The notes beneath the pieces are model-generated. The model worked only from the letters and a program-made list of their open reading frames with translations, had not been told where the DNA came from and did no database searches. From NCBI GenBank assembly GCA_963706445.1, contig OY970160.1, positions 800,001 to 864,000 of the forward strand: a DNA stretch of 64,000 nucleotides, written 5' to 3'. This document shows, piece after piece, positions 1,319 to 60,438 of the stretch (positions are counted from its first letter, which is position 1; each line of letters starts with the position of its first letter). Source of the DNA: an uncultured Nitrososphaerales archaeon. Its GTDB lineage: Archaea > Thermoproteota > Nitrososphaeria > Nitrososphaerales > Gagatemarchaeaceae. Position numbers and translations under genes: made by a program.

Positions 1319-1326
1319 AGGCGACC

Positions 1327-9307: not shown

Positions 9308-9478
9308 CCAAGGAATCTCGGCCAGGGCGTCGCCCAATCATTGACCGAGCCCACCAACATCAAAAATGGCCGAGTGGTAGAATACTGTAGAATCCCTTTC
9401 GCAACCTTCTCCTGTCTGATTCTCATGTCTGAGAATGGCTCCCGCGTGTTAAATAGGGCAGCTCGTCAGAATTCCTTC

Positions 9479-10441: not shown

Positions 10442-11048
10442 GGGACACCCGACAGTATGTGACGTCTTCAATGATGCCAACGGTTGCGCGCCTACACAGG
10501 GTAACGAGACTCGGCCAGGGAGTTTCTTGCCAGCCCAAGTTGGCGGGGCGCTCACTACGCGTTCAGCGTCAAGTGGGTCAGCGCAGGCCCGTACGGATAG
10601 ACCCAGTAAAACAAGGACAACTCCATCTGCACGTCCCGGCTAGCGGCAATCATGCAGGAAAGGCTAGCGAGGACATTTCATCGCATTCAGTCTCGCAAGA
10701 CGCCCGTTGATCTTTGTATGCTTTTTGGGGGCGGACCGACGAATATTAGCGCCAAGTACTTCTCTAGGTTATTACCTGGATGCTAATGGCGGTGTCTCCA
10801 GGGGTCGGCTGGGCAGAACCCACACAGTAGTCGTCCATGACTATTGAGGCAACACTCTTGCCAAGGGTAAGGCATTACGATTAGTTTCTCCAGCACCCCC
10901 GACTCTGCCGTCGCCGAAGTCCGGCCCGATCAGGGCTTTCACAAGTAGCGGAACCATCTCGTCTAGAAGTCACGTCGGGGTTTGCCTGTTCTGACGCTTA
11001 GCACTAAATATACCGCGTTCTGCATCAGACGCCGGGTGGCCTGGCTTC

Positions 11049-21277: not shown

Positions 21278-21340
21278 ACTACGTTGATGTTTCACACTTA
21301 CTTCCATTCGGAATTATTAAATTCCGGGTGTTCCTCTGCG

Positions 21341-29316: not shown

Positions 29317-29862
29317 ATGAGCACAGTCCTTGTCAGCCTGCTATGCCACCCAGACCGCGACCCGAAGATCAGCGTGTCGCCCGGTCCAGGTTACGTTGTC
29401 GAAATAAACAGGACCCCAGGGTATGCGAACGCGGTCAGGGAGGCCATCAGTCGCGCCCTCGAGCTCGACGCCGATCTCGTGATCTCAGATACCGATGGCT
29501 ATCACCCGGCGGCCGAGATTGAGCGGCTCGCAGAGCTTCCCGTCGACGCCGACATCGTGAAGCCCTACAGGAACAACATAGGCTTCCAGTCAAACGTATA
29601 CACCTACCTTTGGAGCGGGACCCACATGAAATCAGTCAAAGACGTGACTGGAGGACTTTACAGGATGTCCAACAAATTCCTGAGGTCATTGCCGACCCTA
29701 AGATCAAACGACATGACAATACATATCGAGATATTGAACATCGCGTCCCGCACCGGGGCGACGATCAGACAGTATTCATACGAATCGTCCAGCAATGACA
29801 ACGCTAATTCGAAGCGGACGCGACACTACCAACTGAAGCTGCTCGGGGCACTGACGAGATAG
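29317..29862 (+). CDS. GT2-like glycosyltransferase (short, divergent N-terminus)
   Basis: GYANAVREAI, ISDTDGYH (DxD), DVTGGLYRM, IEIL. Confidence 0.7.
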   Translation: MSTVLVSLLCHPDRDPKISVSPGPGYVVEINRTPGYANAVREAISRALELDADLVISDTDGYHPAAEIERLAELPVDADIVKPYRNNIGFQSNVYTYLWSGTHMKSVKDVTGGLYRMSNKFLRSLPTLRSNDMTIHIEILNIASRTGATIRQYSYESSSNDNANSKRTRHYQLKLLGALTR

Positions 29863-29875
29863 CTGCCTATTCGTC

Positions 29876-30487
29876 TCAGGGAGACATTCGACCAGACGTT
29901 GCCGGGAGGAAGCCAAGCTCACCTAGCCTGGCGATGATCATCCTTGCCGAAGTCTTGGCGTCTGAAATCTCAGTGTTGGCCAGAATGTCAGGGGACTCGG
30001 GCTCCTCATAGGGGTCCTGGATGCCCGTCATGTTTGTTATCTCCCCCTTCCTCGCCTTCTTGTAGAGCCCCTTGGGGTCCCGCTTCTCGCAGGCTTCGAG
30101 TGATGCCTTCACAAATACTTCCACAAACCTTTCCTTCCCGATGACGTCCCTCGCCTCCGCCCGGGACTTCCTATAGGGCGATATCAATGCAACAATCCCT
30201 ATCACTCCGTTCTTGGCCAGTAGTTTGCCTACGAACGAGACACGCCTGGCGTGCTCCTGTCTGTCTTCCTTCGACAGACCCAGGTCGCGCGATATTCCCT
30301 TTCGGAATTCATCTCCGTCCAGGATTTCCACGTATCTCCCGAACTCTCCTTCAAGCATCTCCTCAAGGATCATGGCCAGGGTAGTCTTACCCGACCCTGG
30401 CAGTCCAGTCATCCAGAGAACGAACCCTTCTGGCTTTCCTATCACGAGGGCCCCCTCCCCAGAGCCGTACTTCCCTGTTACCTCCAC
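29876..30487 (-). CDS. cysC: adenylyl-sulfate kinase
   Basis: WMTGLPGSGKTT, LDGDEFR, ISPY, RDPKGLYKKARKGEI, TGIQDPYEEP. Confidence 0.97.
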   Translation of the reverse strand: MEVTGKYGSGEGALVIGKPEGFVLWMTGLPGSGKTTLAMILEEMLEGEFGRYVEILDGDEFRKGISRDLGLSKEDRQEHARRVSFVGKLLAKNGVIGIVALISPYRKSRAEARDVIGKERFVEVFVKASLEACEKRDPKGLYKKARKGEITNMTGIQDPYEEPESPDILANTEISDAKTSARMIIARLGELGFLPATSGRMSP

Positions 30488-30488
30488 C

Positions 30489-31961
30489 CTATGCCCCCTC
30501 CTGTTGAATCGGAAGAGGACTTCCGCATAGACCCTGTCCCAGTTCCCCCTCGTCGATCCCGTACAACCTTAGCAGCGTCGGGGCGATGTCCGCGATCTTC
30601 GCTCCCTTCAACTCCCTTCCACCTAGGTCGGCCTTGGGGTCAGACATAAGAAATATTCCCTTCATAGAATGGACCGAGTCATCGGGCCCGGTGTCGTTCT
30701 CGAAGAGGTAGTTCGAATCGTGCCCGACCGTGCCAGCTGACCTCCAATTGAGGTCGTCGAAGTAGACCATCAGGTCTGGTTTGTCCCCGATGGCTGTTCC
30801 ATAGAGTTGGGTAGGCTCTAGCACGGAGTTCTTCATCACCTTCCCCTTGTCGTCTTTGATTTGAAGAATCCGTCGCTTCAATTCCATCTTCTCTGCTTCG
30901 AAGTCCATTGGCTCGACTACCCCGCTTGGTTCCCGGCCCTTGACGTTGAAGAATATCCTTGCGTAATATCCGCCCCACCCCCAGGCTCTCGTCTTCTCCC
31001 AGTCAACCTGTGCCTTCTCTATGTCTGACCCCTTCATGGGCGGGAACTTGAACTTCAGGTACCCCTGCTCCACCAGCCACTGGTTCACACAGAATGCCCC
31101 CTGCATTCCCTTTGATCCGTGGTCTGAAAGGATGAATGTGAGACAATCCTCGCCAAAGATCTCGATCAACCTGCCAATCCTTTCGTCGACCATCTGGTAG
31201 TACTCCCTGTCTATCTGTTCGTACTGGGTCCCTTTCACATACTTGGGGTGAGTTGGATCGAAGAACTTCCAGAACGCGTGGTGGAGCCGGTCGAAGCCTA
31301 TTTCATGCATCATGAAGAAGTCCCAAGGTCTTGTCTTTGCAAGATGCTCTGCGACATCGAAGCGCCTGCGGGTCATGTCGAAAAGCTGGGTCTTCAGTGT
31401 GTCTCGATTGTCTGTCCTGAAGGTGACGTCGAACACATAGTTCCCGCCACTCGCAGCCAGAACCTCAGTTTTCAGCTCAGGAGGAGATGTGAACTCTCTG
31501 TCCGGGCTCGGAGTGAGAAAGCACGAAACCCCCTCGACGCCGGGGATTGCCCTTGGAGGATACGAAGGAGGGACGCCCAGTACGACGCTCTTCATCCCGT
31601 GAGACCCAAGGATCTCCCAGACCGTCTTCTCCTTCACCGAGGTTGAGTTTACGATGTATCCATCTGAGTAGGCGTTCCCCCTTCTGTGCCTGAACCCATA
31701 GATTCCAAGTCGGCCCGGATTTTTGCCTGTCATCATCACCATCCACGCAGGTATGGTAATAGGGGGGTCACACGTTTCCAGTTCCCCGTGCAGGCCCTTT
31801 TCGTAAAGGCGCCGAATGTTGGGGAGTTTGTCCAGCAGCTTCGAGAACATCATTTCTGGTGGAACGGAATCGAGTCCAATTACGGCAACTTTTCGTTTCA
31901 AGTCAGAGACACCATCGGCGCCGATGAAATACGGGGCATCCTCGAAGAAGTTTTTGACCAT
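30489..31961 (-). CDS. alkaline phosphatase superfamily protein (COG3379/NPP-like), Thr nucleophile
   Basis: IGLDS, PPITIPAW, TGKNPG, DRLHH, SDHG, GPDDSVH; 1 bp from cysC. Confidence 0.9.
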   Translation of the reverse strand: MVKNFFEDAPYFIGADGVSDLKRKVAVIGLDSVPPEMMFSKLLDKLPNIRRLYEKGLHGELETCDPPITIPAWMVMMTGKNPGRLGIYGFRHRRGNAYSDGYIVNSTSVKEKTVWEILGSHGMKSVVLGVPPSYPPRAIPGVEGVSCFLTPSPDREFTSPPELKTEVLAASGGNYVFDVTFRTDNRDTLKTQLFDMTRRRFDVAEHLAKTRPWDFFMMHEIGFDRLHHAFWKFFDPTHPKYVKGTQYEQIDREYYQMVDERIGRLIEIFGEDCLTFILSDHGSKGMQGAFCVNQWLVEQGYLKFKFPPMKGSDIEKAQVDWEKTRAWGWGGYYARIFFNVKGREPSGVVEPMDFEAEKMELKRRILQIKDDKGKVMKNSVLEPTQLYGTAIGDKPDLMVYFDDLNWRSAGTVGHDSNYLFENDTGPDDSVHSMKGIFLMSDPKADLGGRELKGAKIADIAPTLLRLYGIDEGELGQGLCGSPLPIQQEGA

Positions 31962-32095
31962 GGTATTTCTGTATTTTCGATTCTTTCACAGAGTATTCGG
32001 TCAGTTTCTGGGTCCTTCCCGCCTTCAACTGGTCCATCCATGGGCGCGGGCTACGGTTCATAGCTCAGGCGAGTGGGCCATTCTCGACTGTCGGT

Positions 32096-32875
32096 TCACA
32101 GCTTCTTCTGGGTTATTGAGAACACGCAGGCGGGCGCCCCTTTCAGGACGCACTTCACTTCGGTTGATACTGCGGTGAATCCGTAGACCTTCTCAACTGC
32201 CCCAGTCAGATAACCCCGCATGAAGTTGCACCCTGTCCTGGACTTGGCCCCCTCTGAGCATTCGAAGCAATCCCTTACTTCTACGGAGAAGGAACCGTCC
32301 TTTTCGCTGGTCTTGGAACTGAGGACCCCCCACCCCTGGGCCGAGAGTAGCCTTCTCAGCACCCCAACCTGAGCTTTGACCCGCTCCGATCCTAGCAGAT
32401 TGAACATGTCCTCGGCATTCCTCTGGCTGAGGGTGTAGCCCTCCTGGTAAAGAAGCGCCTCCCCTCCGCTCCCGAGCGTCTTCGCCACATGGTCGAACAT
32501 ATGCGTCAAGCCATCCCGTCTGAAGAGCATGTAGTCTTCATCGTCGACGACGATGCCGGTGTGGAATGTATCAACCAGAAGCCCGTCCTTTCCGCTGGCG
32601 ACCACCACTTCCATGGCCGCCTTTGAGGCGTCGATGAGCTTCTCGAGATCCTTCGGACCTTGACCTTTGACGATGGACTCCGCGAAGCCGCTGAACATGG
32701 CGGTCCCGTCGCTGAGTGAATAGGTTGTCGTTCCGATCAGATTCACCTTGGAACTGAGTAGTTCAAGTATTGAGCTGTATGACCCGGGCTCGTCCGATAG
32801 CTTGACCACTATCTGGAACAATTCCTTCCCGGGTGCATAGTGCAAAGGAAAGGTCCTCTTCTTGACTTCTTTCAT
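32096..32875 (-). CDS. ACT-like plus V4R domain protein
   Basis: VKLSDEPG; GWG, DCFEC, CNFMRGYLTG, EVKC..G..AC. Confidence 0.85.
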   Translation of the reverse strand: MKEVKKRTFPLHYAPGKELFQIVVKLSDEPGSYSSILELLSSKVNLIGTTTYSLSDGTAMFSGFAESIVKGQGPKDLEKLIDASKAAMEVVVASGKDGLLVDTFHTGIVVDDEDYMLFRRDGLTHMFDHVAKTLGSGGEALLYQEGYTLSQRNAEDMFNLLGSERVKAQVGVLRRLLSAQGWGVLSSKTSEKDGSFSVEVRDCFECSEGAKSRTGCNFMRGYLTGAVEKVYGFTAVSTEVKCVLKGAPACVFSITQKKL

Positions 32876-32933
32876 CGTAGGTTTGCTCCTCCATTAAGAA
32901 TCCTGAGCTTTAAGGATGACAGAGAGGTCACTA

Positions 32934-33293
32934 CTACTTCTTCTCCACCATGCCGCGGACCAGCTCGGACGCCATCGGGATGAGCTTCTTCGGGACTTCG
33001 TTCTCCAGTATGACAAGCTGGTACTCCTTGGCCAATGCGGACGCCCTCTCGCTCAGCTTCGGAGACACGCAGAGCACAGCTTTCTCCGGTCCTGTGTCGA
33101 ACACCTTCACGTAGAACTTCAGCACCTTCATCTCGTCTACCTCCTTCACAGATAGCTCAGTATCGACGACAATCTTGACCTTCCCAGAATCGGGAAGAAG
33201 GGCGAAGGCGAACTCATGCTTCACCCCTGACTTGCCGACTATCAGGGCAGGTGCGGACGCCTTGATGCCCTCCCCAGTCAATTCAGATGCCAT
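32934..33293 (-). CDS. restriction-endonuclease-like (PD-(D/E)XK) fold protein, probably inactive
   Basis: IVGKSGVKHEF, VLKFYVKVFD, LSERASALAKEY; catalytic acids poorly conserved. Confidence 0.55.
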   Translation of the reverse strand: MASELTGEGIKASAPALIVGKSGVKHEFAFALLPDSGKVKIVVDTELSVKEVDEMKVLKFYVKVFDTGPEKAVLCVSPKLSERASALAKEYQLVILENEVPKKLIPMASELVRGMVEKK

Positions 33294-33605
33294 TGTTTCG
33301 AAACCTGTCGCCGTCTCCAGAAAAAGGACAGCGGGTGAAAAAGGCAACCAGATCCACGCTCGGGAAGCATGAAATGAAAGGACAAAGAACGCAAGTTGGA
33401 ACGAAAGCACATACATCAGCGTCCTGAATCTCAAACTCTGCCCTCCGTTGGCGATAGAACTAGTATTATAGACGTTTTCACCTGCGCACCGCGAATAATC
33501 TCGTAGCCGCAAGGCTATCAGAATTTTACAAGATTGTCAGGGTTCTGAAGCCCACAACAATCTATCCAGAAAGCCCGAGGACAAACCATGGAAGAGGAAG
33601 ACTAG

Positions 33606-33818
33606 ATGGGGGGATATCTCTATCGCGGAAGGTCTTGGTTCTCGAGAGAATCACGCGGGGGTGCTAGGAGCATTGAACGAGTGACGGAGCCATCGTTCTG
33701 CGAAGAAGGTCGGTGTCCACGCCTCGCCATCTGGCGCCTTGCACATGGGTCTCAGACAACGGATTTCTGCCCCAGGCACGCCCTAGCGACAATGAAAGAC
33801 AGGAAACGGTGGTTGTAG
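33606..33818 (+). CDS. small hypothetical protein (Cys/His motif)
   Basis: FCEEGRC..FCPRH; purine-rich leader. Confidence 0.35.
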   Translation: MGGYLYRGRSWFSRESRGGARSIERVTEPSFCEEGRCPRLAIWRLAHGSQTTDFCPRHALATMKDRKRWL

Positions 33819-33862
33819 CGCCTCCTGGGCGCCAAAGACATCCCTCGAGCGGTCCTACGCCC

Positions 33863-34837
33863 TTAGCGGGACCGCGTTGGTTGGGAGGAACTCGTCGCAC
33901 TATATATCCGACTGCGCCTGTCTTCGAAGCTTGTGTGTTCTGATATCAGTCCGCGTTGAAGCAGATCGTCAAGTGCTTTCTGTATGGTCCTCCTGGGGAG
34001 CTGGGTGGTCGCCAGTATCCCCTTCTGATCTATCGGTTGCAGGTTCCTGATCGCGTAAAGAACGAACTTCACCGACGGACCTGCGATCAACTCTTCACCT
34101 GGCCTGTCGATCCCGAATGTGTCGAACCTGAGTCCCATCCTCTCAGATTGCACGGCGGCCACCGAACCGAGCGCCACGTGGCCCAGGTTCACATTGGGCC
34201 CGAGCTCAAGAATGAGGGCAGCCTGCTGAGTCTCAGAAGGGGCCTCGAATATGAGGTCACGATGGTCGAAGGTGCTCGTTATCGATCTCAGGAATGGCCA
34301 CTTCAGGTTCCCCTCCAGGTCATAGATGCCTACCCCCCTCCCGCGCTCCCTGCTTTCAATCACCACCTTGAAGGGCCCTAGGCGTAGTCCCCACTGGATC
34401 TGGGCCAGAGTCTCGTTCAGTGAAAGCTGGGCAGAAGGGTCCTTCTTGCCAACCGTGTACAGCACGTCTAGACCAGCAGTCCTGGCCTTGGCTACGAGGC
34501 GCTCCTTCTCCGAAGCAGATATCTCGATGATCCCATCAGAAACCTCCACCATGTCAAACCCGAGGGACTTCGCCCTTGCAAGGGCCTTGTCACTACCCCC
34601 GTCTGGGAACGACCTCTCGATCAGCATGCCAGACATGGCGACCCTCACGCCTTCTTCTCGGTAGAACTTGACCCGCTCCCGGACGCCGTCTTCACTCCAG
34701 ACCAAGGGCAGCCCCCACCCGATGACCACGGCGCTGACGTACTTTGCTACTTCATGGAACTCATCTTTGACAAGACCTGAGAGCCGATCCAGCACGATAG
34801 TGAGGCCGTATTCGTCCTGCGGCATTTTCTGTATCAT
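33863..34837 (-). CDS. phosphosulfolactate synthase (ComA)-like domain fused to a C-terminal winged HTH
   Basis: GLTIVLD, GWG, EVSDG, VGKKD, IESRE, IFEAP..QQ, NVNLG, GLRFDT; tail LPRRTIQKALDDL..DRRSRIY. Confidence 0.85.
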   Translation of the reverse strand: MIQKMPQDEYGLTIVLDRLSGLVKDEFHEVAKYVSAVVIGWGLPLVWSEDGVRERVKFYREEGVRVAMSGMLIERSFPDGGSDKALARAKSLGFDMVEVSDGIIEISASEKERLVAKARTAGLDVLYTVGKKDPSAQLSLNETLAQIQWGLRLGPFKVVIESRERGRGVGIYDLEGNLKWPFLRSITSTFDHRDLIFEAPSETQQAALILELGPNVNLGHVALGSVAAVQSERMGLRFDTFGIDRPGEELIAGPSVKFVLYAIRNLQPIDQKGILATTQLPRRTIQKALDDLLQRGLISEHTSFEDRRSRIYSATSSSQPTRSR

Positions 34838-34952
34838 TATCCTCCTTAATCTGTAGGAACAGAGCTGGACTATCTATGTTTTATGCATCATCTGCACTCA
34901 TACCCTAGATTTGAACGCAGTTGCTGCAGATATGCCCACCTAGATTGCGCCC

Positions 34953-34966
34953 ATAACCGAGGTTAT
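34953..34966. promoter_or_regulatory. inverted repeat ATAACC-GA-GGTTAT overlapping a TATA-like TTATAT
   Basis: lies in the divergent comA-HTH / tauE intergenic region. Confidence 0.4.
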
Positions 34967-35038
34967 ATGCTTGTGTATGAAACCCCGCCTTGTGCGGGGA
35001 TTCAGAATCAGTATCTTGACTCTATGTGGGGGTCTTAA

Positions 35039-35995
35039 TTGATGGCCTTTGACATCACGGTGCTGGTCTTCCTCACCATCCTGTCGCTTGCGGCCGCGAC
35101 CGTCAATGGTGGATTGGGGTACGGCTACTCGAGCCTTTCGACTCCTCTGGCCATACTCGTCATAATCAACAAGGTGATAAATCCGGTCTACATTCTGGTT
35201 GAAGGAATGATGAATTCGGTGATGCTCATTCTCTCTGGAAAGGCAAACATAAAATCCACCTTCAAACGCGTCCTTCCTGTTATCGCAGCGCTGATCCCTG
35301 CCGCCATAGTGGGAAGCATCGCGCTGTCGTTGATTGCCCCTCTTTGGATCAGGTTGATTGTGTATGTCTCCATTCTCCCGTTGATCCTCATGCAGGCCGC
35401 TGGGTTCAGGAGGCCCATAAAGAACGAAAAGACAGCGGGGATCCCCTTGGGCGCAGGGGTCGGACTTCTGTACTCGATCACAACCATTTCGGGCCCTCCC
35501 ATCGCCCTCTTCTGGAATAATCAGGGGATGGTCAAAAGCGAGTTCAAAGCCGCGATCGCCCAGGTCAGGATTGTGGAATCAGCGACCACCATTGCTGCAT
35601 ACACAGCACTAGGCCTTTTCACGGCTACAACATTCCAGCTGTTCACCTATGTCGCTCCCCCCATCTTGATTGGTCTCCCCCTTGGATTCTTCATTGTGAA
35701 GAGGATAGGACCCGAAGTGTTCAGGCGGGTGTGCATGAGCTTCGACGCGTGGATCGTTGGTTACGGGCTAGCGGTGGTCCTTGGCAGCCTCTTCGGACTG
35801 ATCGAATTCGGTTACGCAATCTGGGTGTTTGTCATCGGGATAGACCTCATGCTCCTCTACAGGTTCTTCGGTAAGCGAAAGGGGAACGGTGTTGCGGGTC
35901 TGGTCAAGTCGCCCCAAACCACACCGATCAAGGCTTCAGCTTCAGAAGCCAGGCCAATCAAGCAGAACAAGCCCGAAGACGGCAGGGATGGCTGA
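35039..35995 (+). CDS. TauE/SafE family anion (sulfite/sulfonate) transporter
   Basis: AATVNGGLGYG, TTISGPP; ~9 TM. Confidence 0.85.
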   Translation: MMAFDITVLVFLTILSLAAATVNGGLGYGYSSLSTPLAILVIINKVINPVYILVEGMMNSVMLILSGKANIKSTFKRVLPVIAALIPAAIVGSIALSLIAPLWIRLIVYVSILPLILMQAAGFRRPIKNEKTAGIPLGAGVGLLYSITTISGPPIALFWNNQGMVKSEFKAAIAQVRIVESATTIAAYTALGLFTATTFQLFTYVAPPILIGLPLGFFIVKRIGPEVFRRVCMSFDAWIVGYGLAVVLGSLFGLIEFGYAIWVFVIGIDLMLLYRFFGKRKGNGVAGLVKSPQTTPIKASASEARPIKQNKPEDGRDG

Positions 35996-36052
35996 ACATC
36001 GGGGTTGGCACATCCAGCAATTCTCTTCGCGTTCATGGACGCATGAGACGGG

Positions 36053-37693
36053 TCAGAGTCTCTTTCCAGATCTCACCACGGCCCTAGTTGCATCCTGCAG
36101 GGCGTTGGCAGAACCTTCTCTCATGTATCTGACCGGGCCCATAGCCAGTTCGCCGTCCCGAGTAAACAACCCCGACAGGACCTTCCCGTCCATGTCCGAC
36201 GGGACTTCGACCCCGAGGATGTGCAAGATAGTGGGTGGCAGGTCGATAAGTGAAGCGTCTTCAAAAGTCGGTGTCTGAACCAGTCCTTCTCCCGCGGCAA
36301 TCAGGACCCCGTCCATCCGGTGACTCCCCGAGTATATGGGGTCGGGGGAGATCATCTTGCGGCTCCCGAACTCGAATAGCCTGTGGGCCCTGTAGGTCAT
36401 GGTGCTGTCGAAGAACACAATGTCCGGTGCGGCGTCGAAGCATGGCCCCGAGTAGATCTCATCTTTCGAGTAAATGATGTCGAACAGAATCCTCCCTGTC
36501 TTGGGGTCTCGGAGTGCCGCCACCTTTGACTTGAGTTCCTGTAGCAGACCCGGAGCTTTCGCAGGGTCGAGCTTCCCTCTCGGCTCTCGGCCTTTGATGT
36601 TGAGGAAGAATTGCCCGTAGTTTCCGTAAGAATAGACCAGCGTCTCGTCCCAGTCGATGTCGTCCAAGGATAGGGAGACTTTCTTCGCAAGCTCCAGGCT
36701 CCTTGATTTCTTCCCGTAAGCATAGGTCCTCGAACCCACGAGCCCGAGACTCTTTGCAGCGCGGAAGAGGAAGTCCGTTGTGATGCCCACCTTGAAGAAT
36801 GCCCTCCTTACCCTGGTCCCAGTGCTCCGTCTGAGCCTAAGGTACCCATTGTCCAGGAGCCAATTGTTCATGTAGACAGCATAGTAGACAGGGCCGAAAC
36901 CGTGGTCGGAGATCACGAAAACCCTGTCGTCAGGTGACAGGTCAGACATGACCTCTCCGAAGGCCGAATCGACGGCGTCGTAGACATCGTAGAAGAGGGG
37001 GCCGAATTTCGAAGCCTTGGCAGGGTCGTATTTCGGATTGTCTTTATCGATGTACCTCCAATAGAAGTGGCTGACTACGTCGGTCGCGTCAAACACTGTA
37101 ACAATAAGGTCCCATTCGTCCTTCTTCATCAGGTGGCGGACCACGCGTGCTTGGTCCTTTGTAATGGTGAGCATGTCATCGAAGAGCTTGAGCTCGTCTC
37201 CTGGCTTCAGGAAGTGAGGGCTTGGCTTGTGGAGATGGGTGATGCCGAGCTCTTTCTCGACTTCTGTGAGCACCTCCCGCGGGATTGCGAAGTCTCGCCT
37301 TGTTTCAGGGTAGGGAAACCCAGAGATCATAGTCCCATTGACCGGCTCAGGGGGGTAGGTCAGAGGCACGTTCACTATGAGGCATTTCTTCCCTCTGGCA
37401 GACGCATACTGCCATAGTGTTCTCCCTTTTCTGTCAAGGGACGAAACCGGGGCGTAGGTATAGGTGCCGGGGACCCTTGTCGAGAAATCATAGATACCGT
37501 GCTTCCCGGGATTCTTTCCGGTGGCGAAGGTGTTCCAGGCTGTGGCAGACAGGGGGAGGATTGTGGACCTTAGACTCCCCATGGTTCCATGTGCGGCCAG
37601 CCCGCTGAAGTTCTTCAAGCGTCCCTGGGCCATCATCGGCTTCATGATGTCGAGGGTGGCGCCGTCGAGTCCGACTACGACTACCTTTGGCAA
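36053..37693 (-). CDS. alkaline phosphatase superfamily protein (COG3379/NPP-like), Ser nucleophile
   Basis: GLDGAT, STILPLSATAW, TGKNPGKHG, DVVSH, SDHGFG, GSHRMDG. Confidence 0.92.
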   Translation of the reverse strand: MPKVVVVGLDGATLDIMKPMMAQGRLKNFSGLAAHGTMGSLRSTILPLSATAWNTFATGKNPGKHGIYDFSTRVPGTYTYAPVSSLDRKGRTLWQYASARGKKCLIVNVPLTYPPEPVNGTMISGFPYPETRRDFAIPREVLTEVEKELGITHLHKPSPHFLKPGDELKLFDDMLTITKDQARVVRHLMKKDEWDLIVTVFDATDVVSHFYWRYIDKDNPKYDPAKASKFGPLFYDVYDAVDSAFGEVMSDLSPDDRVFVISDHGFGPVYYAVYMNNWLLDNGYLRLRRSTGTRVRRAFFKVGITTDFLFRAAKSLGLVGSRTYAYGKKSRSLELAKKVSLSLDDIDWDETLVYSYGNYGQFFLNIKGREPRGKLDPAKAPGLLQELKSKVAALRDPKTGRILFDIIYSKDEIYSGPCFDAAPDIVFFDSTMTYRAHRLFEFGSRKMISPDPIYSGSHRMDGVLIAAGEGLVQTPTFEDASLIDLPPTILHILGVEVPSDMDGKVLSGLFTRDGELAMGPVRYMREGSANALQDATRAVVRSGKRL

Positions 37694-37747
37694 CTAGACA
37701 CCAATTCTCCTCTCGTACAGGAATCCAGTTTACATGTCAAGCCGGCA

Positions 37748-37999
37748 TTACATGTACCCGAGGTCTCTGAGCCTCTGCTCAACTGAAGCCTGGTCCTCTT
37801 TGGAGAAGACGTTCTCGGACTGCTTTGCCTCCTGAGGGTGTCCGCCTTCGAGTTCCGCGACGACCTGCTCGACCACATAGGTGACGTACTCATCGAGGGT
37901 CTTGAAGTCGCTCCCCACCAGCCTGCGTTTGACCCTTTCGGCTAAAGCTGAAGGTATATTGACTACAACCGTGTCTGACCTATCCAAGGTTGAAGGCAC
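37748..37999 (-). CDS. CopG/RHH protein with C-terminal RLRDLGY tail
   Basis: VVVNIPSALAERVK..FKTLDEYVTYVV; FSKEDQASVEQRLRDLGYM. Confidence 0.85.
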   Translation of the reverse strand: MPSTLDRSDTVVVNIPSALAERVKRRLVGSDFKTLDEYVTYVVEQVVAELEGGHPQEAKQSENVFSKEDQASVEQRLRDLGYM

Positions 38000-38201
38000 G
38001 GCTCAAAAGTCCTCTTTAACGGTTTTGTCGGTTATTATGGAGGTTTTTTTCTGAAAACTCACAGGAATCAACCTGTAGGGCCTGGACCGAGGAGCCGGGA
38101 ATAATCTTCGCCACAACCTCGCAATCTAGGCCAAGCCATAACCCAGCCTGAGGGATTCGGCAAACGAATCGCTTTAATTGATAGGGATGGTCCCCACGAA
38201 C

Positions 38202-38714
38202 ATGCGCAGCGGCGAAGACCCCAAGCTGGACGAACTCGACCTGTGGCTGGTGGAAGCGTTGATCGAAAATCCCGACATCAAGTTCAAGGCCCTCGCCACA
38301 AGGATCGGGTCGGACCAGCGCACCATAGCAAAGAGGATAAAGTCTCTAAAGGAGTCAGGGGTCATCAAGCTAGGAGTTGAGGTAGACTGGGCGGGCCTCG
38401 GATTGCAGGCCAGGGCCTTCGTCGGCTCCGACACAGCACTGGGTGAGAAGGCCGTCGCAAAACTGATCGAATTCCTCCGTTCCGACCCCAGGATTATCGA
38501 AGCCTACCAGACGGTAGGGACCAACGAATACGTGATGTATGTGATAGAGAAGGACCTGCCGAGCCTCAGAGATTCCGTCCTCAATGACCTGGAGCCTCTC
38601 ACCGCGGACCTCAAGACAAGCGTTATCGCGTCGGAGATAAAGCGGAAGGATCAGCTTTCTCTGATACGGTATCTGAGGACGCTTAGATATCCCAGAAGCA
38701 TCTCGAAGCCTTAG
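38202..38714 (+). CDS. Lrp/AsnC family transcriptional regulator
   Basis: LDELDL, DQRTIAKRIKSLKESGVI, YQTVGTNEY. Confidence 0.88.
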   Translation: MRSGEDPKLDELDLWLVEALIENPDIKFKALATRIGSDQRTIAKRIKSLKESGVIKLGVEVDWAGLGLQARAFVGSDTALGEKAVAKLIEFLRSDPRIIEAYQTVGTNEYVMYVIEKDLPSLRDSVLNDLEPLTADLKTSVIASEIKRKDQLSLIRYLRTLRYPRSISKP

Positions 38715-38838
38715 ACGAGTACCGGAGTCGACGCTTCCGCGGTTCCTTTCTTGGATTCAGCCCAGTGGACTTATAATGCCTAGGTGATTATCGCGAAATG
38801 GAGGCCCCGCCCATACAGACCATTCGGATATCTGATCC

Positions 38839-39717
38839 TTGATCCTCGACACCGCTACAATCCTGCCTCTCTTGGTCCTGTTTGCCCTTGGATTCCTCAC
38901 CGGAGGCCTTTCAAACGTGACCAGCGGAGGAGCTGGAATATTCACGATCTACTACCTCACGAACTACGAGGGGCTTGTGATTCAAGATTCAACGGGGACG
39001 GTGCTGGCTGCTTCCGCCCTGATGGTTCTTGTTGGGGCAATCGCTTTCTACAGAAAGAAACAGGTCAATACGCAATTGGCCATTACGGTGGGCGTTTCAG
39101 GTGTGCTGAGCGCCTTCCTCGCCGCCAGGTGGGCATCTACGCTTCAATCGTCTTCTCTCGAAGAAGCTTTCGGGGCTTTCACCCTGGTGCTGGCCTTCTA
39201 CACAGCGCTAAAGTTCACCAACGATTGGCGAAATGAGAAGAGAAAGGCTCCGACGGCGGATTCGGCAATCGCCTCAGGAAACATTGCTCGGCCATCATCT
39301 GCCGGATTAAGTCAACCGTCGAGGTGGGCAGGGAGGACCCCCGCGGCCCTGGCGGTTCAGATTGCGAAGGGGCTCCTCATAGGCGCGGCCACCGGTCTCT
39401 TCGGTGTTGGACTCGCGAGTCTGAGCGTGGTCCTGTTCTTCCTCCTCTTCAAACTTGACACGAAGGTGATCCTTGGGACCAGCCTTTTCGCTTCCTTCTT
39501 CAGGTATCTCGGGGGGGCCGCGGGCTATCTTACTACAGGAGAGATCGACCCCCTCTTCTTCCTGATTCTGGTTGTCGGTGGCGGGCTGGGGAGCTTCATA
39601 GGGGCGCGCATTCTGCTCGGAGGAGGGCGGGGGTCGAAGGACATCTACGTGAAAATCATAGTGGTGGGCATACTGGTCTTCATCAGCTACGAATTCTTCC
39701 TCAAGCATCTCATTTGA
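38839..39717 (+). CDS. TauE/SafE family transporter
   Basis: GFLTGGLS..GGAG, GAATGLFGVG, GTSLF; 8 TM. Confidence 0.85.
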   Translation: MILDTATILPLLVLFALGFLTGGLSNVTSGGAGIFTIYYLTNYEGLVIQDSTGTVLAASALMVLVGAIAFYRKKQVNTQLAITVGVSGVLSAFLAARWASTLQSSSLEEAFGAFTLVLAFYTALKFTNDWRNEKRKAPTADSAIASGNIARPSSAGLSQPSRWAGRTPAALAVQIAKGLLIGAATGLFGVGLASLSVVLFFLLFKLDTKVILGTSLFASFFRYLGGAAGYLTTGEIDPLFFLILVVGGGLGSFIGARILLGGGRGSKDIYVKIIVVGILVFISYEFFLKHLI

Positions 39718-39738
39718 GATAACCCCGGAGGAAATATT

Positions 39739-40887
39739 CTATTCCACGAATGGACTAGGATAGTCGAGGATGACCCGGGATACCTCGGGCCTCATGAACT
39801 CCTTCGGCGGGGTCTCCCCCGCCTGGAACATCTTCCTTAGCTTGGTCCCGCTGAACGTGAGACGGTCCGACTCAGGGTGAGGGCAGATCTTCTCGCTGGC
39901 GATGCCCCCACACCTGTTGCAATAGAAGAACTCCTTGAAGAAGACAGGCTCAATCCCTAAGTCAGGGAACTCCTTGAAGATTTCCTGGGCGGCGTAGGGG
40001 CCGTAGTAGTTGCCCACTCCAGCGTGGTCCCTTCCTATGGCGATGTGAGTGCAGCCAAAGTTCTTTCTCATTATTGCGTGCATGATGGCCTCCTTAGGAC
40101 CGGCATACTGCATCTCGTAGCGGAGGACGCTCAATACGACCGAGTTAGCTGGATAGTAGTTCTTCACCAGGGCCCTATTGGTGTCCAGTATTACGTCGTC
40201 CTTGAAATCCCCTGATTTCTTCTTGCCTATGACCGGATTGATGAAAATACCGTCGGCGAAGGTCAACGCTGTTTTCTGAACGTATTCGTGTCCGATGTGG
40301 GGGGCGTTCCTCGTCTGGAAGGCAACAATTTCTTTCCACCCCCTCTGCCTGAACAGGAACCTCGTCTCCCTTGGGCTCAGAGTGAAGTCCGCGAACTGGT
40401 CGTCGGGCCGTGCGACCACCTGGGTAAGCTTGCCAGCGACCACCACCTCAGAGGATTCGTAGAGCTTTGCCACGCCCGGGTGAGCGGCATCTTCGGTCCC
40501 ATAGACTCTATTCGCGAATTCCTTCTTCGATATCTTATAGCTCTCGCTGAATTCGAGGATGGCGATCGGAGCGCCCGCTTCATCAACCAACGTCACCTCG
40601 TCTCCTGAGGCCCCCTTGAAGTCTGCCGGGACATGGAGGAGGATGGGGATGGTCCACGGGGTGTCGTCATTGAGGCGCATGGAGCCGATGACGCCGTGGT
40701 AGTCTGCTTCGGCCATGAAGCCGTCGAGGGGACTCAGAATCCCGGAGGCGATGTTGTGGACCGTCGTCCTGGTCTCGTCGTCGACCATTATCTTGGGTGC
40801 CGATGCTATTTCCCTAAGCCTCGTATCAGACGGAGAAGTTTCCTTTATGGTGAGCAGCCGGCCACCGTGAGGGAGCGGGTAGGCCAT
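39739..40887 (-). CDS. sat: sulfate adenylyltransferase (ATP sulfurylase)
   Basis: PHGGRL, SPLDGFM, HPGV, AFQTRNAPHIGHE, YAGPKEA, GRDHAGVG, SGTKLR, MRPEV. Confidence 0.98.
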   Translation of the reverse strand: MAYPLPHGGRLLTIKETSPSDTRLREIASAPKIMVDDETRTTVHNIASGILSPLDGFMAEADYHGVIGSMRLNDDTPWTIPILLHVPADFKGASGDEVTLVDEAGAPIAILEFSESYKISKKEFANRVYGTEDAAHPGVAKLYESSEVVVAGKLTQVVARPDDQFADFTLSPRETRFLFRQRGWKEIVAFQTRNAPHIGHEYVQKTALTFADGIFINPVIGKKKSGDFKDDVILDTNRALVKNYYPANSVVLSVLRYEMQYAGPKEAIMHAIMRKNFGCTHIAIGRDHAGVGNYYGPYAAQEIFKEFPDLGIEPVFFKEFFYCNRCGGIASEKICPHPESDRLTFSGTKLRKMFQAGETPPKEFMRPEVSRVILDYPSPFVE

Positions 40888-40902
40888 GCTTTCCCCTGGT
40901 CC

Positions 40903-41139
40903 TTAGATGTAGCCAAGCTTCAAGAGACGGGCCCTGATTTCCTCAGAGTCAGGATCGGAGGACCCCTTCTGGTCCTCTGCTTCGCGGAAAGCTATGGCCC
41001 CCCTGAGCAGTTTCGCAACCTCATCCGAAAGGTTTTCCCTATTGAATCCGATGTGATCCAAGTCAACCAGCTTCCTTACCAATGGAGCAGGTAGTTTGAC
41101 CAAGACTTCCTGGGCGCTATCAGAAATCTGATCGGACAA
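40903..41139 (-). CDS. RHH-like small protein with C-terminal RLLKLGY tail
   Basis: VLVKLPAPLVRKL..LSDEVAKLLR..DSEEIRARLLKLGYI; 15 bp upstream of sat; start trimmed to TTG. Confidence 0.7.
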   Translation of the reverse strand: MSDQISDSAQEVLVKLPAPLVRKLVDLDHIGFNRENLSDEVAKLLRGAIAFREAEDQKGSSDPDSEEIRARLLKLGYI

Positions 41140-41402
41140 CTGTTTTTGCCCGCACTTCCGGCTATATTTGCTTAACTGAATGATTTCATTCGTTAGTATA
41201 TATTTCGGCCCATTTTGCTTATCATCCCGGCCATGGACACGAAAGAAGGCGTCGCAATCTTGGAAGGGCTTCAATTCAAACGGTCCCTGACTCTCGCAAC
41301 TTCGTAATACATTCTCTCGTTTGGATTCAGCTTCATAGGTTTCGTCTCTCAGCACCCTACGATCCATTTCATGAGTATTCGCTACGCCAAAGGATAGAAG
41401 GG

Positions 41403-50932: not shown

Positions 50933-51216
50933 TTGATTCTGCAAAGTCTCGCTGTCTATATCAACGTAGCGGAGAATATGCAATGTTTGTTCTATATTTT
51001 GCGCCACCAATCGACCAGAGGAAAGCGATCGCTCCAGGGTCCCTGAACTCGAAGACCTCTTTCTTTGACATTAATGCTGTTCTTGAATCAAGTCAAACCT
51101 CTAACAGTGGAATAAGACCTCGTCAGTGATAGAACAGCGTTATTCATGCTCGACAATTCTTAAGAAGCATCCCGAACAAATGTGAAAATCAGCAATGAAA
51201 TTGCTTCTTGGTGGCG

Positions 51217-60214: not shown

Positions 60215-60438
60215 AGGTACGGTGACCGGCCATCCTCGCGGGCTTTTCTACCTTCGCCTTTCGGGACCCCAATTTGACCTAAAGTGAGGTGATGGGGCTG
60301 AGAAGCAAGGGTTCTTTGCCTTCCCTGAAACCTACCTAGGGACAATGGCGTGTTTTGGTCGATAATGTCGGCCATTTCATGGCAAGTTTAAAATACGAAG
60401 CAAATTTTCTGCAACTGTACTCTAGGAGCCGCAAATTA

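What the first reader, a model, noticed from the sequence alone, without database searches (positions are those of the whole stretch)
29317..41139. PAPS-producing island in which AP-superfamily enzymes take the place of a sulfotransferase or reductase
Seen: sat and cysC (sulfate to APS to PAPS) are present. No PAPS/APS reductase, sulfite reductase or P-loop sulfotransferase occurs in the 64 kb. cysC is 1 bp from a COG3379-like alkaline-phosphatase-superfamily gene, a second such gene is in the island and a third is at 51.2 kb. None of the three has a signal peptide. Two TauE transporters, a GT2, ComA-wHTH, Lrp and two RHH proteins are interleaved. Known: AP-superfamily enzymes work through a covalent Ser/Thr intermediate, and several are transferases (LtaS, EptA). 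Inference: these proteins move sulfate from PAPS/APS to a sugar, glycolipid or lipid-linked glycan through a sulfo-enzyme intermediate, a non-canonical sulfation pathway.
Basis: partly seen in the sequence, partly recalled or inferred. Interest (0 to 1): 0.85.

Follow-up and report, generated by a model that had tools for sequence, protein, structure and literature searches.

The report
PAPS genes with alkaline-phosphatase-fold partners
This archaeon makes the activated-sulfate donor PAPS but has no known enzyme to use it, and the PAPS genes are tied, here and in many other archaea and bacteria, to an uncharacterised alkaline-phosphatase-fold enzyme that is either a new kind of sulfotransferase or a helper that removes pyrophosphate.

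Summary
The whole 1.82 Mb genome lacks PAPS/APS reductase, sulfite reductase, sulfatase and four Pfam sulfotransferase families.

The island is a split copy of a conserved module, RHH-sat-AP1-cysC(-TauE). It was described in Pyrococcus yayanosii in 2021, where the AP gene was only guessed to be a pyrophosphatase. This scan has met it before on other genomes.

In 80 species-representative loci from many archaeal and bacterial phyla, cysC directly follows AP1 in 52 and sat directly precedes it in 41. About 105 sat-AP1 fusions exist, plus cysC-AP1 and AP1-GT2 fusions. The RHH carries an invariant C-terminal RLxxLGY tail.

AP1's function stays open:
- PAPS-using sulfotransferase, about 0.4. A pApase gene sits in the same operon in 8 of the 80 loci and in two relatives, no other consumer is known, and the flanks hold glycan genes.
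- Pyrophosphatase that pulls sat, about 0.28.
- Other roles, the remainder.

Sulfatase-like Agl30/Agl31 give a precedent for sulfotransferases in this superfamily.

The parts
29317..29862 (+). 181-aa GT2-like protein (lead only)
   Evidence: No Pfam hit. Atlas feature search scores 0.95 with 28 of 30 hits in GT2 clusters. A D-x-D-like 'DADLVISDTDGYHP' stretch is seen in the translation.
29876..30487 (-). cysC, adenylylsulfate (APS) kinase
   Evidence: PF01583 202 bits and TIGR00455 215 bits. It starts 1 nt after the AP1 stop codon.
30489..31961 (-). AP1: core NPP-like alkaline-phosphatase-superfamily enzyme of the conserved sat-AP1-cysC module (likely start at 31901, 470 aa)
   Evidence: PF01663 147 bits. 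AlphaFold model has pLDDT 97. The best PDB folds are Xanthomonas NPP, ENPP1/3/5/6 and PhnA at 12-16% identity. In the 470-aa numbering the metal ligands and nucleophile are D11, T49, D204, H208, D260, H261 and H411, each conserved in 64-73 of 76 relatives.
32096..32875 (-). V4R-domain protein, probable small-molecule-binding regulator upstream of AP1
   Evidence: PF02830 V4R 39 bits and a weak MsvR C-terminal match.
32934..33512 (-). 192-aa protein of unknown family with a hydrophobic N-terminal stretch
   Evidence: No Pfam or NCBIfam hit.
33863..34837 (-). ComA-like (phosphosulfolactate synthase family) domain fused to a MarR-type wHTH; probable regulator
   Evidence: PF02679 190 bits. TIGR03849 scores 191 bits, below its 280 cut-off. 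MarR_2 covers residues 259-309. The same fusion lies divergently next to AP1 in several Thermoplasmata loci. The genome has no ComB.
35039..35995 (+). TauE/DUF81 anion transporter
   Evidence: PF01925 63 bits. TauE also adjoins the module in P. yayanosii (PMC8268124) and in L001, L010, L015 and L030.
36053..37693 (-). AP2: divergent PF01663 paralogue (546 aa, Ser at the nucleophile position)
   Evidence: PF01663 121 bits. It is 25% identical to AP1, and the GLDG, LPLS, D..H, SDHG and GSH motifs are intact.
37748..37999 (-). RHH83: CopG-like regulator with the invariant C-terminal RLxxLGY tail, directly upstream of AP2
   Evidence: It aligns with 26 module-linked RHH proteins; R76, L77, L80, G81 and Y82 are invariant. 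It is one of only two ORFs in the genome with this tail.
38178..38714 (+). Lrp/AsnC-family regulator
   Evidence: HTH_24, HTH_AsnC-type and AsnC_trans_reg.
38839..39717 (+). second TauE/DUF81 anion transporter
   Evidence: PF01925 105 bits.
39739..40887 (-). sat, sulfate adenylyltransferase (ATP sulfurylase)
   Evidence: PUA_2 142 bits, ATP-sulfurylase 305 bits and NF003166 486 bits.
40903..41367 (-). RHH154: longer RHH-like protein with the same tail (...RARLLKLGYI), directly upstream of sat
   Evidence: Its C-terminal 98 residues align with the RHH family.
51208..52884 (+). AP3: third PF01663 paralogue (558 aa, Ser at the nucleophile position), among large probable surface proteins
   Evidence: PF01663 123 bits. 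It is 28% identical to AP1.

Best explanation
The island is a rearranged, three-operon copy of a widespread horizontally shared module, RHH-sat-(DHH pApase)-AP1-cysC-(TauE).

Proposed pathway:
1. TauE brings in sulfate (inferred).
2. sat and cysC make PAPS (family assignment).
3. Because the genome has no reductase and no canonical sulfotransferase, PAPS is used for sulfation, not assimilation (inferred).
4. The PAPS-consuming step is most likely done by the alkaline-phosphatase-fold enzymes themselves. AP1, the conserved core member, would accept the sulfuryl group of PAPS at its bimetal centre. This could go through the Thr49 nucleophile or by direct transfer. It would release pAp and pass sulfate to a conserved acceptor, such as a nucleotide sugar or a lipid-linked glycan precursor.
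5. The divergent paralogues AP2 and AP3 would serve other acceptors, on the many surface proteins and glycans encoded around them (inferred).
6. The RHH proteins with the invariant RLxxLGY tail, the ComA-wHTH fusion, Lrp and the V4R protein regulate the set (inferred).

Shown: gene identities, genome-wide absences, conserved linkage, fusions, intact catalytic residues, NPP fold.

Inferred: every catalytic step of the AP proteins.
For: 1. No known PAPS consumer in a 95%-complete single-contig genome.

2. AP1-cysC linkage in the class sample. Of the 19 genomes with an AP1 orthologue (E<1e-100), cysC lies within 150 bp in 11 and within 2.5 kb in 5 more. The gene order occurs both ways round. Most of these lineages lack cysH: family f5 0 of 9 and f6 2 of 14, against 80 of 80 in the AP1-free family f2.

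3. In 80 species-representative loci from Nitrososphaerota, Bathyarchaeia, Thermoplasmata, Archaeoglobi, Asgard, Hadarchaeota, Aminicenantes, Eubacteriales, Planctomycetota and others, cysC directly follows AP1 in 52. sat directly precedes it in 41, and both hold in 36.

4. A DHH pApase-like gene sits directly upstream of AP1 in 8 of these loci. Four of them are DHH-AP1-cysC with no sat. In G007 and G002 the operon is RHH-sat-DHH-cysC-AP2like-AP1. A dedicated pApase implies that the operon's own chemistry releases pAp. The AP proteins are its only members of unknown function.

5. P. yayanosii has the same cluster with a biochemically proven pApase and no identified sulfotransferase or sulfite pathway (PMC8268124).

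6. G007 and G002 lack cysH, Sulfotransfer_1/3 and Sulfatase.

7. Fusions exist between cysC and AP1, between AP1 and GT2, and between phosphoglucosamine mutase and AP1.

8. The commonest flanking families are nucleotide-sugar epimerases/dehydratases (18 of 149 genes), TauE, NDP-sugar dehydrogenases, further PF01663 paralogues and GT2.

9. Precedent: AP-superfamily Agl30 and Agl31 act as N-glycan sulfotransferases (PMC11980604).

10. The catalytic residues are intact and conserved.
Against: - The active site is the two-metal, Thr-nucleophile NPP type, which is tuned for phosphoryl and nucleotidyl transfer. No native sulfotransferase of this type is known. Agl30 and Agl31 belong to the sulfatase branch.
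- About 105 of 110 long relatives are sat-AP1 fusions. A distant relative is fused to a nucleotidyltransferase. Both partners release pyrophosphate, which suits the published pyrophosphatase guess.
- 46-54% identity between archaea and bacteria is unusually high for a glycan-modifying enzyme. It points to universal small substrates.
- Canonical sulfotransferases do co-occur in some loci and genomes: L004, and G001, G027, G055 and G011.
- The own genome, G001, G007 and G027 lack a family I soluble pyrophosphatase. That leaves room for AP1 in this role.
- There is no biochemical evidence of any kind.
Confidence: 0.4

Rival explanations
1. AP1 is a dedicated inorganic pyrophosphatase. It removes the PPi made by sat and so pulls the very unfavourable sulfate-activation reaction. 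The module is then only a PAPS factory with by-product clean-up (AP1 for PPi, DHH for pAp). The real sulfotransferases are encoded elsewhere, possibly as AP2/AP3-type paralogues or unknown families.
For: - Jin et al. 2021 speculated this for PYCH_17550 (PMC8268124).
- About 105 sat-AP1 fusion clusters exist (checked on contigs L004/L005).
- A distant relative is fused to a nucleotidyltransferase, which also releases PPi.
- A pyruvate-kinase-barrel plus sat fusion suggests an energy or by-product role.
- High cross-domain conservation fits a universal substrate.
- Canonical sulfotransferases sit beside the module in L004.
- The own genome, G001, G007 and G027 lack a family I PPase.
- sat-PPase fusions are known in some algae (from memory, not checked here).
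Against: - AP1 is tied more tightly to cysC than to sat: 52 against 41 adjacent cases. AP1-cysC or DHH-AP1-cysC units occur with no sat in reach (L002, L035, L039, L041, L061, L094).
- In this window AP1 abuts cysC, while sat is 7.8 kb away in another operon.
- The genome has an H+-pyrophosphatase.
- In G035 a canonical family I PPase lies next to a second cysC copy, while the sat-AP1-cysC set is elsewhere.
- No NPP-clade enzyme is known as a PPase.
- AP1 has a large, highly conserved cap domain with many invariant Trp, Tyr and Arg residues. That is more than PPi binding would need.
- This reading leaves this genome and P. yayanosii with no PAPS consumer at all.
Confidence: 0.28
2. AP1 does classical NPP chemistry on the phosphosulfate nucleotides. 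It attacks the alpha-phosphate of APS or PAPS, releasing sulfate and forming a nucleotidyl-enzyme. In this way it acts as a safety valve, editing enzyme or sensor that sets APS/PAPS levels. It may work with the RHH regulator that it seems to bind.
For: - The closest folds are nucleotide pyrophosphatases/phosphodiesterases and the NPP catalytic set is intact.
- APS and PAPS are the nucleotides made by its neighbours.
- Complex prediction of AP1 with RHH83 gave weak support: score 0.55, best of 3 controls 0.12. The mark was reached by 58 of 80 solved complexes and 2 of 110 mismatched pairs. At 0.60 or under it was reached by only 7 of those 80 and by both mismatches that passed. The runs agree in at least 76% of contacts and the partner's pLDDT is at least 65.
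- The RHH tail RLxxLGY is as conserved as the enzyme.
Against: - A hydrolase that undoes the work of sat and cysC is a futile cycle. It is hard to see why that would be kept, and fused to sat, in so many lineages.
- It does not explain the in-operon pApase.
- It provides no use for PAPS.
Confidence: 0.12
3. AP1 is a non-homologous 3'-phosphoadenosine-5'-phosphate (pAp) phosphatase, a CysQ analogue that recycles the by-product of sulfotransfer. Alternatively, in the ComA-linked loci, it replaces the missing ComB phosphosulfolactate phosphatase.
For: - pAp phosphatase genes commonly cluster with PAPS synthesis genes.
- This genome has no close homologue of the module-type DHH pApase.
- It has no ComB, although a ComA-like gene is 2 kb from AP1. 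ComA is adjacent to AP1 in 8 of 80 loci.
Against: - A DHH pApase-like gene stands next to AP1 in the same operon in 8 of 80 loci and in G007 and G002. In P. yayanosii that DHH protein is a proven pApase. Two pApases side by side is unlikely.
- The genome has an Inositol_P (CysQ/SuhB-type) gene.
- ComA is absent from 72 of 80 loci. Where present it is fused to a wHTH and transcribed divergently, like a regulator.
Confidence: 0.06

Closest known systems
Pyrococcus yayanosii 'sulfate assimilation' cluster PYCH_17520-17560 (copG, ATP sulfurylase, DHH pApase, type I phosphodiesterase/nucleotide pyrophosphatase, APS kinase; TauE adjacent), Jin et al. 2021, PMC8268124
   Same: Same gene set: an RHH/CopG regulator, sat, an NPP-like AP gene, cysC and a TauE neighbour. 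That genome likewise has no identified sulfotransferase or sulfite-reducing enzyme. My 80-locus survey shows it is the same conserved module.
   Different: - Here the module is split into three units (V4R-AP1-cysC, RHH-AP2, RHH-sat) spread over 12 kb and interleaved with extra regulators.
- There is no module-type DHH pApase.
- Two extra AP paralogues are present.
- In the paper the AP gene's role (PPi removal) is a guess and was not assayed.
Agl30 (VNG1056C) and Agl31 (VNG1057C), N-glycan sulfotransferases of Halobacterium salinarum, Zaretsky et al. 2025, PMC11980604
   Same: They are alkaline-phosphatase-superfamily proteins that act as sulfotransferases in an archaeon without canonical sulfotransferases in the pathway. 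The evidence there is deletion plus heterologous expression.
   Different: - They are sulfatase-like: the closest structures are bacterial sulfatases, and one is in the arylsulfatase family.
- AP1, AP2 and AP3 are NPP-like (PF01663) with a two-metal site and a Thr/Ser nucleophile. Their similarity to sulfatase models is only marginal.
- The sulfate donor of Agl30 and Agl31 was not established.
Nucleotide pyrophosphatases/phosphodiesterases (Xanthomonas NPP 2GSN/7MW8, ENPP1/3/5/6) and phosphonoacetate hydrolase PhnA (1EI6)
   Same: Same fold (Foldseek E 1e-15 to 1e-17, TM 0.53-0.60 by the query) and the same catalytic positions. A profile alignment matches GLD to IDG, P-I-T-V-P-A-W to S-L-T-F-P-N-H, and SDHG to SDHG.
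   Different: - Only 12-16% identity.
- AP1 is cytoplasmic and about 90 residues longer, with a conserved cap (the GREPxG motif).
- An invariant Trp replaces the His two residues after the Pro of the nucleophile motif.
- It is linked to sulfate activation, not nucleotide scavenging.
Bacillus subtilis yit/yis sulfolactate operon (sat, cysC, cysH-like, ComA-like YitD, ComB-like YitC) (from memory, not checked here)
   Same: sat, cysC and a ComA-family gene lie in one neighbourhood.
   Different: - This genome has no PAPS reductase to give sulfite and no ComB.
- The ComA domain is fused to a DNA-binding wHTH.
- ComA is absent from most copies of the module.

Membership tests
Alkaline phosphatase superfamily, NPP clade (Pfam PF01663 Phosphodiest) | Pfam PF01663 match above the gathering score | tested here: met
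   AP1 scores 147 bits, AP2 121 and AP3 123, against a cut-off of 23.
Alkaline phosphatase superfamily, NPP clade (Pfam PF01663 Phosphodiest) | Two-metal ligand set (Asp, Asp/His, Asp-His, His) plus a Thr/Ser nucleophile | tested here: met
   D11, T49, D204, H208, D260, H261 and H411 are present in AP1 and conserved in 64-73 of 76 relatives. The profile alignment to Xanthomonas NPP matches the Asp, Thr and Asp-His motifs. AP2 and AP3 keep the motifs with Ser.
Alkaline phosphatase superfamily, NPP clade (Pfam PF01663 Phosphodiest) | NPP-like three-dimensional fold | tested here: met
   The model has pLDDT 97. The top 50 Foldseek PDB hits are all NPP, ENPP, autotaxin or PhnA.
Alkaline phosphatase superfamily, NPP clade (Pfam PF01663 Phosphodiest) | Hydrolysis of nucleotide phosphodiester or pyrophosphate bonds | not testable with these tools
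   This needs an enzyme assay.
Conserved RHH-sat-AP1-cysC module (P. yayanosii PYCH_17520-17560 type) | AP1-subfamily gene directly next to cysC | tested here: met
   The gap in the window is 1 nt. The same adjacency holds in 52 of 80 loci.
Conserved RHH-sat-AP1-cysC module (P. yayanosii PYCH_17520-17560 type) | sat directly upstream of AP1 in one operon | tested here: not met
   sat is 7.8 kb away in its own unit with its own RHH. All parts are present but the order is broken. 41 of 80 other loci have the canonical order.
Conserved RHH-sat-AP1-cysC module (P. yayanosii PYCH_17520-17560 type) | Small RHH/CopG regulator with the C-terminal RLxxLGY tail at the head of the unit | tested here: met
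   Two copies, upstream of AP2 and of sat. They are the only two such ORFs in the genome. 43 of 80 loci have one.
Conserved RHH-sat-AP1-cysC module (P. yayanosii PYCH_17520-17560 type) | DHH-family pApase in the operon | tested here: not met
   There is no close homologue in the genome. The best phmmer hit has E 6e-4, to a 483-aa ORF elsewhere. This member is optional: it is present in 8 of 80 loci.
PAPS-dependent sulfotransferases (Pfam Sulfotransfer_1/2/3/4) | Match to a sulfotransferase family model (P-loop-like PAPS-binding fold) | tested here: not met
   None of the island's proteins, and nothing in the genome, matches PF00685, PF13469, PF03567 or PF17784. If the AP proteins transfer sulfate they do so as a different family.
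Agl30/Agl31-type sulfatase-like sulfotransferases | Sulfatase-branch sequence (PF00884 or arylsulfatase family) | tested here: not met
   AP1, AP2 and AP3 have no PF00884 hit above threshold. Their NCBIfam sulfatase matches are only 15-21 bits. The genome has no PF00884.
Agl30/Agl31-type sulfatase-like sulfotransferases | Loss of glycan sulfation on deletion, gain on heterologous expression | not testable with these tools
   This needs genetics and mass spectrometry.
Inorganic pyrophosphatases (family I PF00719, H+-PPase PF03030) | Sequence membership in a known PPase family | tested here: not met
   AP1 is PF01663. The genome has an H+-PPase at C1:579951-581999 and no family I enzyme. A PPase activity of AP1 would be by analogy and is untested.

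The most novel reading that the evidence does not exclude
The AP1 subfamily is a new, widespread class of PAPS-dependent sulfotransferase built on the nucleotide-pyrophosphatase fold, with a two-metal site and a sulfo-threonine or direct-transfer mechanism. It would be the missing PAPS consumer in many archaea and bacteria that have sat and cysC but no reductase or canonical sulfotransferase.

A bolder sub-case, which I put at about 0.08: one of its substrates or partners is the invariant C-terminal tyrosine (RLxxLGY) of the operon's own RHH repressor. That would make a PAPS-sensing feedback switch.
Probability: 0.35. Interest if true: 0.85.

Novelty: new variant of a known kind. Interest (0 to 1): 0.6.

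Why it matters
Many archaea and anaerobic bacteria, including Asgard, Bathyarchaeia, Thermoplasmata, Thermococcales and this non-ammonia-oxidising Nitrososphaerota lineage, spend ATP to make PAPS yet encode nothing known to use it. Genome-based sulfur budgets usually file these genes under "assimilatory sulfate reduction", and here that cannot be right.

If the NPP-fold partner is the sulfotransferase, three things follow:
- It defines a new enzyme class with unprecedented sulfuryl-transfer chemistry at a two-metal phosphatase site.
- It gives a marker for sulfated surface glycans or metabolites in uncultured lineages.
- It completes the picture that Agl30 and Agl31 began.

If it is a pyrophosphatase, it is a new kind of coupling enzyme for sulfate activation. 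The true consumer then remains to be found, with the AP2/AP3-type paralogues as first suspects.

Either answer is within reach of a simple assay on a soluble 470-residue protein.

Tried and rejected
- Sulfite route. ComA next to AP1 in some loci, and an SDR after cysC in many, suggested that the module feeds sulfite to ComA or SQD1-type enzymes. I rejected this as the general reading. The SDR is TviC-like, followed by a TviB-like dehydrogenase, and the UDP-sulfoquinovose synthase model scores only 45-50 bits against a 575 cut-off. ComA occurs in only 8 of 80 loci and is fused to a wHTH. No reductase exists in the genome.
- AP1 as the pApase. Rejected as the main reading, because DHH pApase genes sit beside it.
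- "AP1 is the only AP-family gene in the small g24 genomes". This was wrong. The loci show an adjacent AP2-like gene that the AP1 query had missed at E<1e-20.
- Family of Haloferax Agl7 (HVO_2046, needed for sulfation of DolP-hexose). I could not find it in the papers held, and the supplement is not held. It is left untested.
- The search for related loci with the 76-sequence alignment failed for lack of a conserved stretch. It worked with 14 sequences.
- phmmer of AP1 alone against PDB sequences found nothing. The profile search and the fold search did.
- Complex prediction was unreachable twice before it ran.
- The amoA search found nothing, but its control rang nowhere, so it shows nothing.

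Full report
**What is in the window**

- cysC at 29876-30487(-).
- AP1, a PF01663 protein, at 30489-31961(-), ending 1 nt before cysC.
- A ComA-like domain fused to a MarR-type wHTH at 33863-34837(-).
- TauE at 35039-35995(+).
- AP2, a second PF01663 protein, at 36053-37693(-).
- An Lrp at 38178-38714(+).
- A second TauE at 38839-39717(+).
- sat at 39739-40887(-).
- AP3, a third PF01663 protein, at 51208-52884(+).

The three AP proteins are paralogues at 25-28% identity. Each starts within a few residues of the first core strand, so they are cytoplasmic by inspection.

Two small RHH-like genes, 37748-37999(-) and 40903-41367(-), stand directly upstream of AP2 and of sat. It has no Pfam hit but looks like GT2 to a language-model search (0.95). 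The rest of the window is dominated by large proteins with no family, or with Big_3_5, BNR, NHL, PQQ-propeller or CarboxypepD_reg domains. These are probably surface proteins.

**The genome**

The window lies in a single 1.82 Mb contig, 95% complete. Best protein hits name Nitrososphaerota/Nitrososphaerales MAGs. No match was found to:
- PAPS/APS reductase (PF01507);
- sulfite reductase (PF01077);
- sulfatase (PF00884);
- Sulfotransfer_1, _2, _3 or _4;
- ComB.

phmmer with a canonical sulfotransferase taken from another locus also found nothing. So sat and cysC have no known consumer anywhere in this genome. The genome has five PF01663 paralogues, three of them in the window. It also has one Inositol_P (CysQ/SuhB-type) gene, an H+-pyrophosphatase and no family I pyrophosphatase.

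**The linkage is conserved and old**

I sampled 151 genomes of the class.
- AP1 orthologues occur in the own family and in families f3, f5, f6 (14 of 14) and f12. They are missing from the 80 genomes of family f2.
- Of the 19 genomes with an orthologue, cysC lies within 150 bp in 11 and within 2.5 kb in 5 more. The gene order occurs both ways round.
- The AP1-bearing families mostly lack PF01507: f5 0 of 9 and f6 2 of 14. All 80 f2 genomes have it.

A scan of one genome per species found 590 relatives. The best 80 loci are 46-72% identical to AP1. They come from Nitrososphaerota, Bathyarchaeia, Thermoplasmata, Archaeoglobi, several Asgard groups, Hadarchaeota, Micrarchaeota, Aminicenantes, Eubacteriales, Planctomycetota, Ignavibacterium, Verrucomicrobiae and others.
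- cysC directly follows AP1 in 52 loci.
- sat directly precedes AP1 in 41.
- Both hold in 36.
- At least one of the two is in the locus in 61.

**Fusions**

Among proteins of 824 residues or more, about 105 of 110 relatives are sat-AP1 fusions, and one is a phosphoglucosamine mutase-AP1 fusion. Shorter forms include cysC-AP1 and AP1-GT2. I checked all three kinds on their contigs. A more distant relative (33% identical) is fused to a nucleotidyltransferase inside a phosphonate/LicD glycan cluster. Another is fused to a pyruvate-kinase barrel and sat.

**The regulator**

In 43 of the 80 loci a 71-85-residue RHH protein sits just upstream of sat or AP1. Its C-terminus is nearly identical from archaea to bacteria: an acidic stretch, then ...RLxxLGY[IL][DE]. 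In an alignment of 28 such proteins, R, L, L, G and Y are invariant. In this genome only two ORFs carry the tail, and both are in the island.

A complex prediction of AP1 with RHH83 gave weak support: score 0.55, best of 3 controls 0.12. The mark was reached by 58 of 80 solved complexes and 2 of 110 mismatched pairs. At 0.60 or under it was reached by only 7 of those 80 and by both mismatches that passed. The runs agree in at least 76% of contacts and the partner's pLDDT is at least 65. No interface was reported. I treat this as a lead only.

**What AP1 is**

The alignment-based model is confident (pLDDT 97). Its nearest solved folds are Xanthomonas NPP, ENPP1/3/5/6, autotaxin and PhnA, at 12-16% identity. 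The NPP catalytic positions are present and conserved in 64-73 of 76 relatives: D11, T49 (Thr in 62, Ser in 6), D204, H208, D260, H261 and H411. Several residues outside the NPP set are also conserved: W53, R73, R205, N273 and R323. A profile alignment to Xanthomonas NPP lines up the Asp, Thr and Asp-His motifs. AP1 is therefore an active NPP-clade enzyme with an extra conserved cap. No characterised close relative exists.

**Literature**

The module has been described. Jin et al. 2021 (PMC8268124) report copG, ATP sulfurylase, a DHH pApase (which they characterised), a "type I phosphodiesterase/nucleotide pyrophosphatase" and APS kinase in P. yayanosii, with TauE alongside. They note similar clusters in other archaea. 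They speculate that the phosphodiesterase degrades PPi, and they remark that no sulfotransferase or sulfite-reducing enzyme is identifiable in that organism.

Separately, Zaretsky et al. 2025 (PMC11980604) showed by deletion and heterologous expression that two sulfatase-like AP-superfamily proteins, Agl30 and Agl31, sulfate the Halobacterium N-glycan.

Earlier notes of this scan report the same sat-AP-cysC module on at least eight other genomes. Most read it as a sulfotransferase and one as a pyrophosphatase. I used them as leads to the 2021 paper, to the in-operon pApase and to the RHH tail, and I checked each on my own loci.

**Weighing the functions**

*pApase.* This is unlikely. A DHH gene stands directly upstream of AP1 in 8 of 80 loci. 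In the small genomes G007 and G002 the operon is RHH-sat-DHH-cysC-AP2like-AP1. The P. yayanosii DHH protein is a proven pApase.

*Sulfotransferase.* Several points favour it:
- An in-operon pApase implies that the operon's own chemistry releases pAp.
- Four DHH-AP1-cysC units lack sat.
- AP1 is tied more tightly to cysC than to sat, as in this window.
- This genome, P. yayanosii, G007 and G002 have no other known consumer.
- Flanking genes are enriched in nucleotide-sugar epimerases (18 of 149), NDP-sugar dehydrogenases, GT2, Wzx, TauE and further AP paralogues. No sulfotransferase family is among the 25 commonest.

*Pyrophosphatase.* Several points favour it:
- The sat-AP1 fusions are very numerous.
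- One relative is fused to a nucleotidyltransferase.
- Cross-domain conservation is very high, which suggests universal small substrates.
- Canonical sulfotransferases co-occur in some loci and genomes.
- A family I PPase is absent from this genome and from three of five relatives tested.

Against the pyrophosphatase reading, the genome has an H+-PPase. In G035 a canonical PPase sits beside a second cysC, away from the module.

*My odds.* Sulfotransferase 0.40, pyrophosphatase 0.28, other NPP-type action on APS or PAPS 0.12, pApase or ComB analogue 0.06, something else the remainder. The weaker statement, that at least one of the AP paralogues is the PAPS consumer of this genome, I put a little above one half.

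**ComA-wHTH**

The ComA-like gene scores below the equivalog cut-off (191 against 280 bits). It carries a DNA-binding domain and has no ComB partner. In Thermoplasmata it lies divergently next to AP1 where the RHH is missing. I read it as a regulator with an enzyme-derived sensor domain, not as evidence for a sulfite pathway.

**Verdict**

The functional tie between AP-fold enzymes and PAPS synthesis is very strong, and the lack of a canonical consumer is genome-wide. The claimed sulfotransfer chemistry is plausible but unproven, and a published rival exists. The module itself is already in the literature and has been met repeatedly in this scan. What remains new is the function, which simple biochemistry can reach.

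Noticed in passing
window 37748-37999(-) and 40903-41367(-); L009-L088: The module's RHH regulator has an invariant C-terminal RLxxLGY[IL][DE] tail, preceded by an acidic stretch, that is conserved from archaea to bacteria. Only two ORFs in this genome carry it. A complex prediction with AP1 gave weak support only. I did not find the tail described in the papers I read.
   Followed up: partly
window 33863-34837(-); L051, L054, L062, L064, L070, L085, L087, L009: A ComA (phosphosulfolactate synthase family) domain fused to a MarR-type wHTH recurs next to AP1, often divergently transcribed and in loci with no sat, cysC or RHH. It looks like an enzyme-derived sensor domain of a transcription factor. 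The genome has no ComB.
   Followed up: partly
L091 (G007:C1) 6411-12108; L092 (G002:C5) 6246-12206: Small (1.2 Mb) relatives carry a six-gene operon: RHH, sat, DHH pApase-like, cysC, an AP2-like gene (522 aa) and AP1. Two different AP-fold enzymes therefore sit in one PAPS operon.
   Followed up: partly
L090 7459-10914: A 1151-residue protein joins an AP1-like domain, a pyruvate-kinase barrel and sat. No APS kinase gene lies within 8 kb. A PHP phosphoesterase follows it, and a sulfatase-like AP gene and a Wzx flippase precede it.
   Followed up: no
L089 8001-10175: A distant AP1 relative (33% identical) is fused to a MobA-like nucleotidyltransferase inside a cluster with PEP mutase, LicD and aminotransferases. 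The fold may therefore also serve phosphonate or phospho-headgroup decoration of glycans.
   Followed up: no
window 11049-13892, 14976-17306, 17783-19066, 21284-23317, 42002-44758, 44906-46459, 46655-48145, 48741-50054, 53003-55522, 55542-57818: There is an unusual density of large (400-950 aa) proteins with no Pfam family, or with only Big_3_5, BNR, NHL, PQQ-propeller or CarboxypepD_reg domains. They are probably surface proteins and possible targets of the glycan or sulfation machinery.
   Followed up: no
window 1225-2589(+): A Pyr_redox_2 protein with a weak match to the flavocytochrome c sulfide dehydrogenase central domain. It may be a sulfide:quinone oxidoreductase-like enzyme in a genome that lacks sulfate reduction.
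   Followed up: no
G000:C1:1278139-1278948(-) and C1:1608448-1609479(-): Two further PF01663 paralogues lie outside the window (519 and 422 aa open frames). I did not examine their neighbourhoods.
   Followed up: no
G035:C6:527840-529005; G027:C1:1147069-1149551: Relatives hold a second, different cysC copy. In G035 it lies next to a family I pyrophosphatase, and in G027 next to a canonical sulfotransferase-like gene. Both are apart from the sat-AP1-cysC set, which suggests two separate PAPS systems in one genome.
   Followed up: no
window 62354-63157(+), 60355-61251(+): A CdvA cell-division gene, and a protein joining an AN1 zinc finger to a Peptidase_M50 domain. These are ordinary archaeal genes unrelated to the finding.
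   Followed up: no
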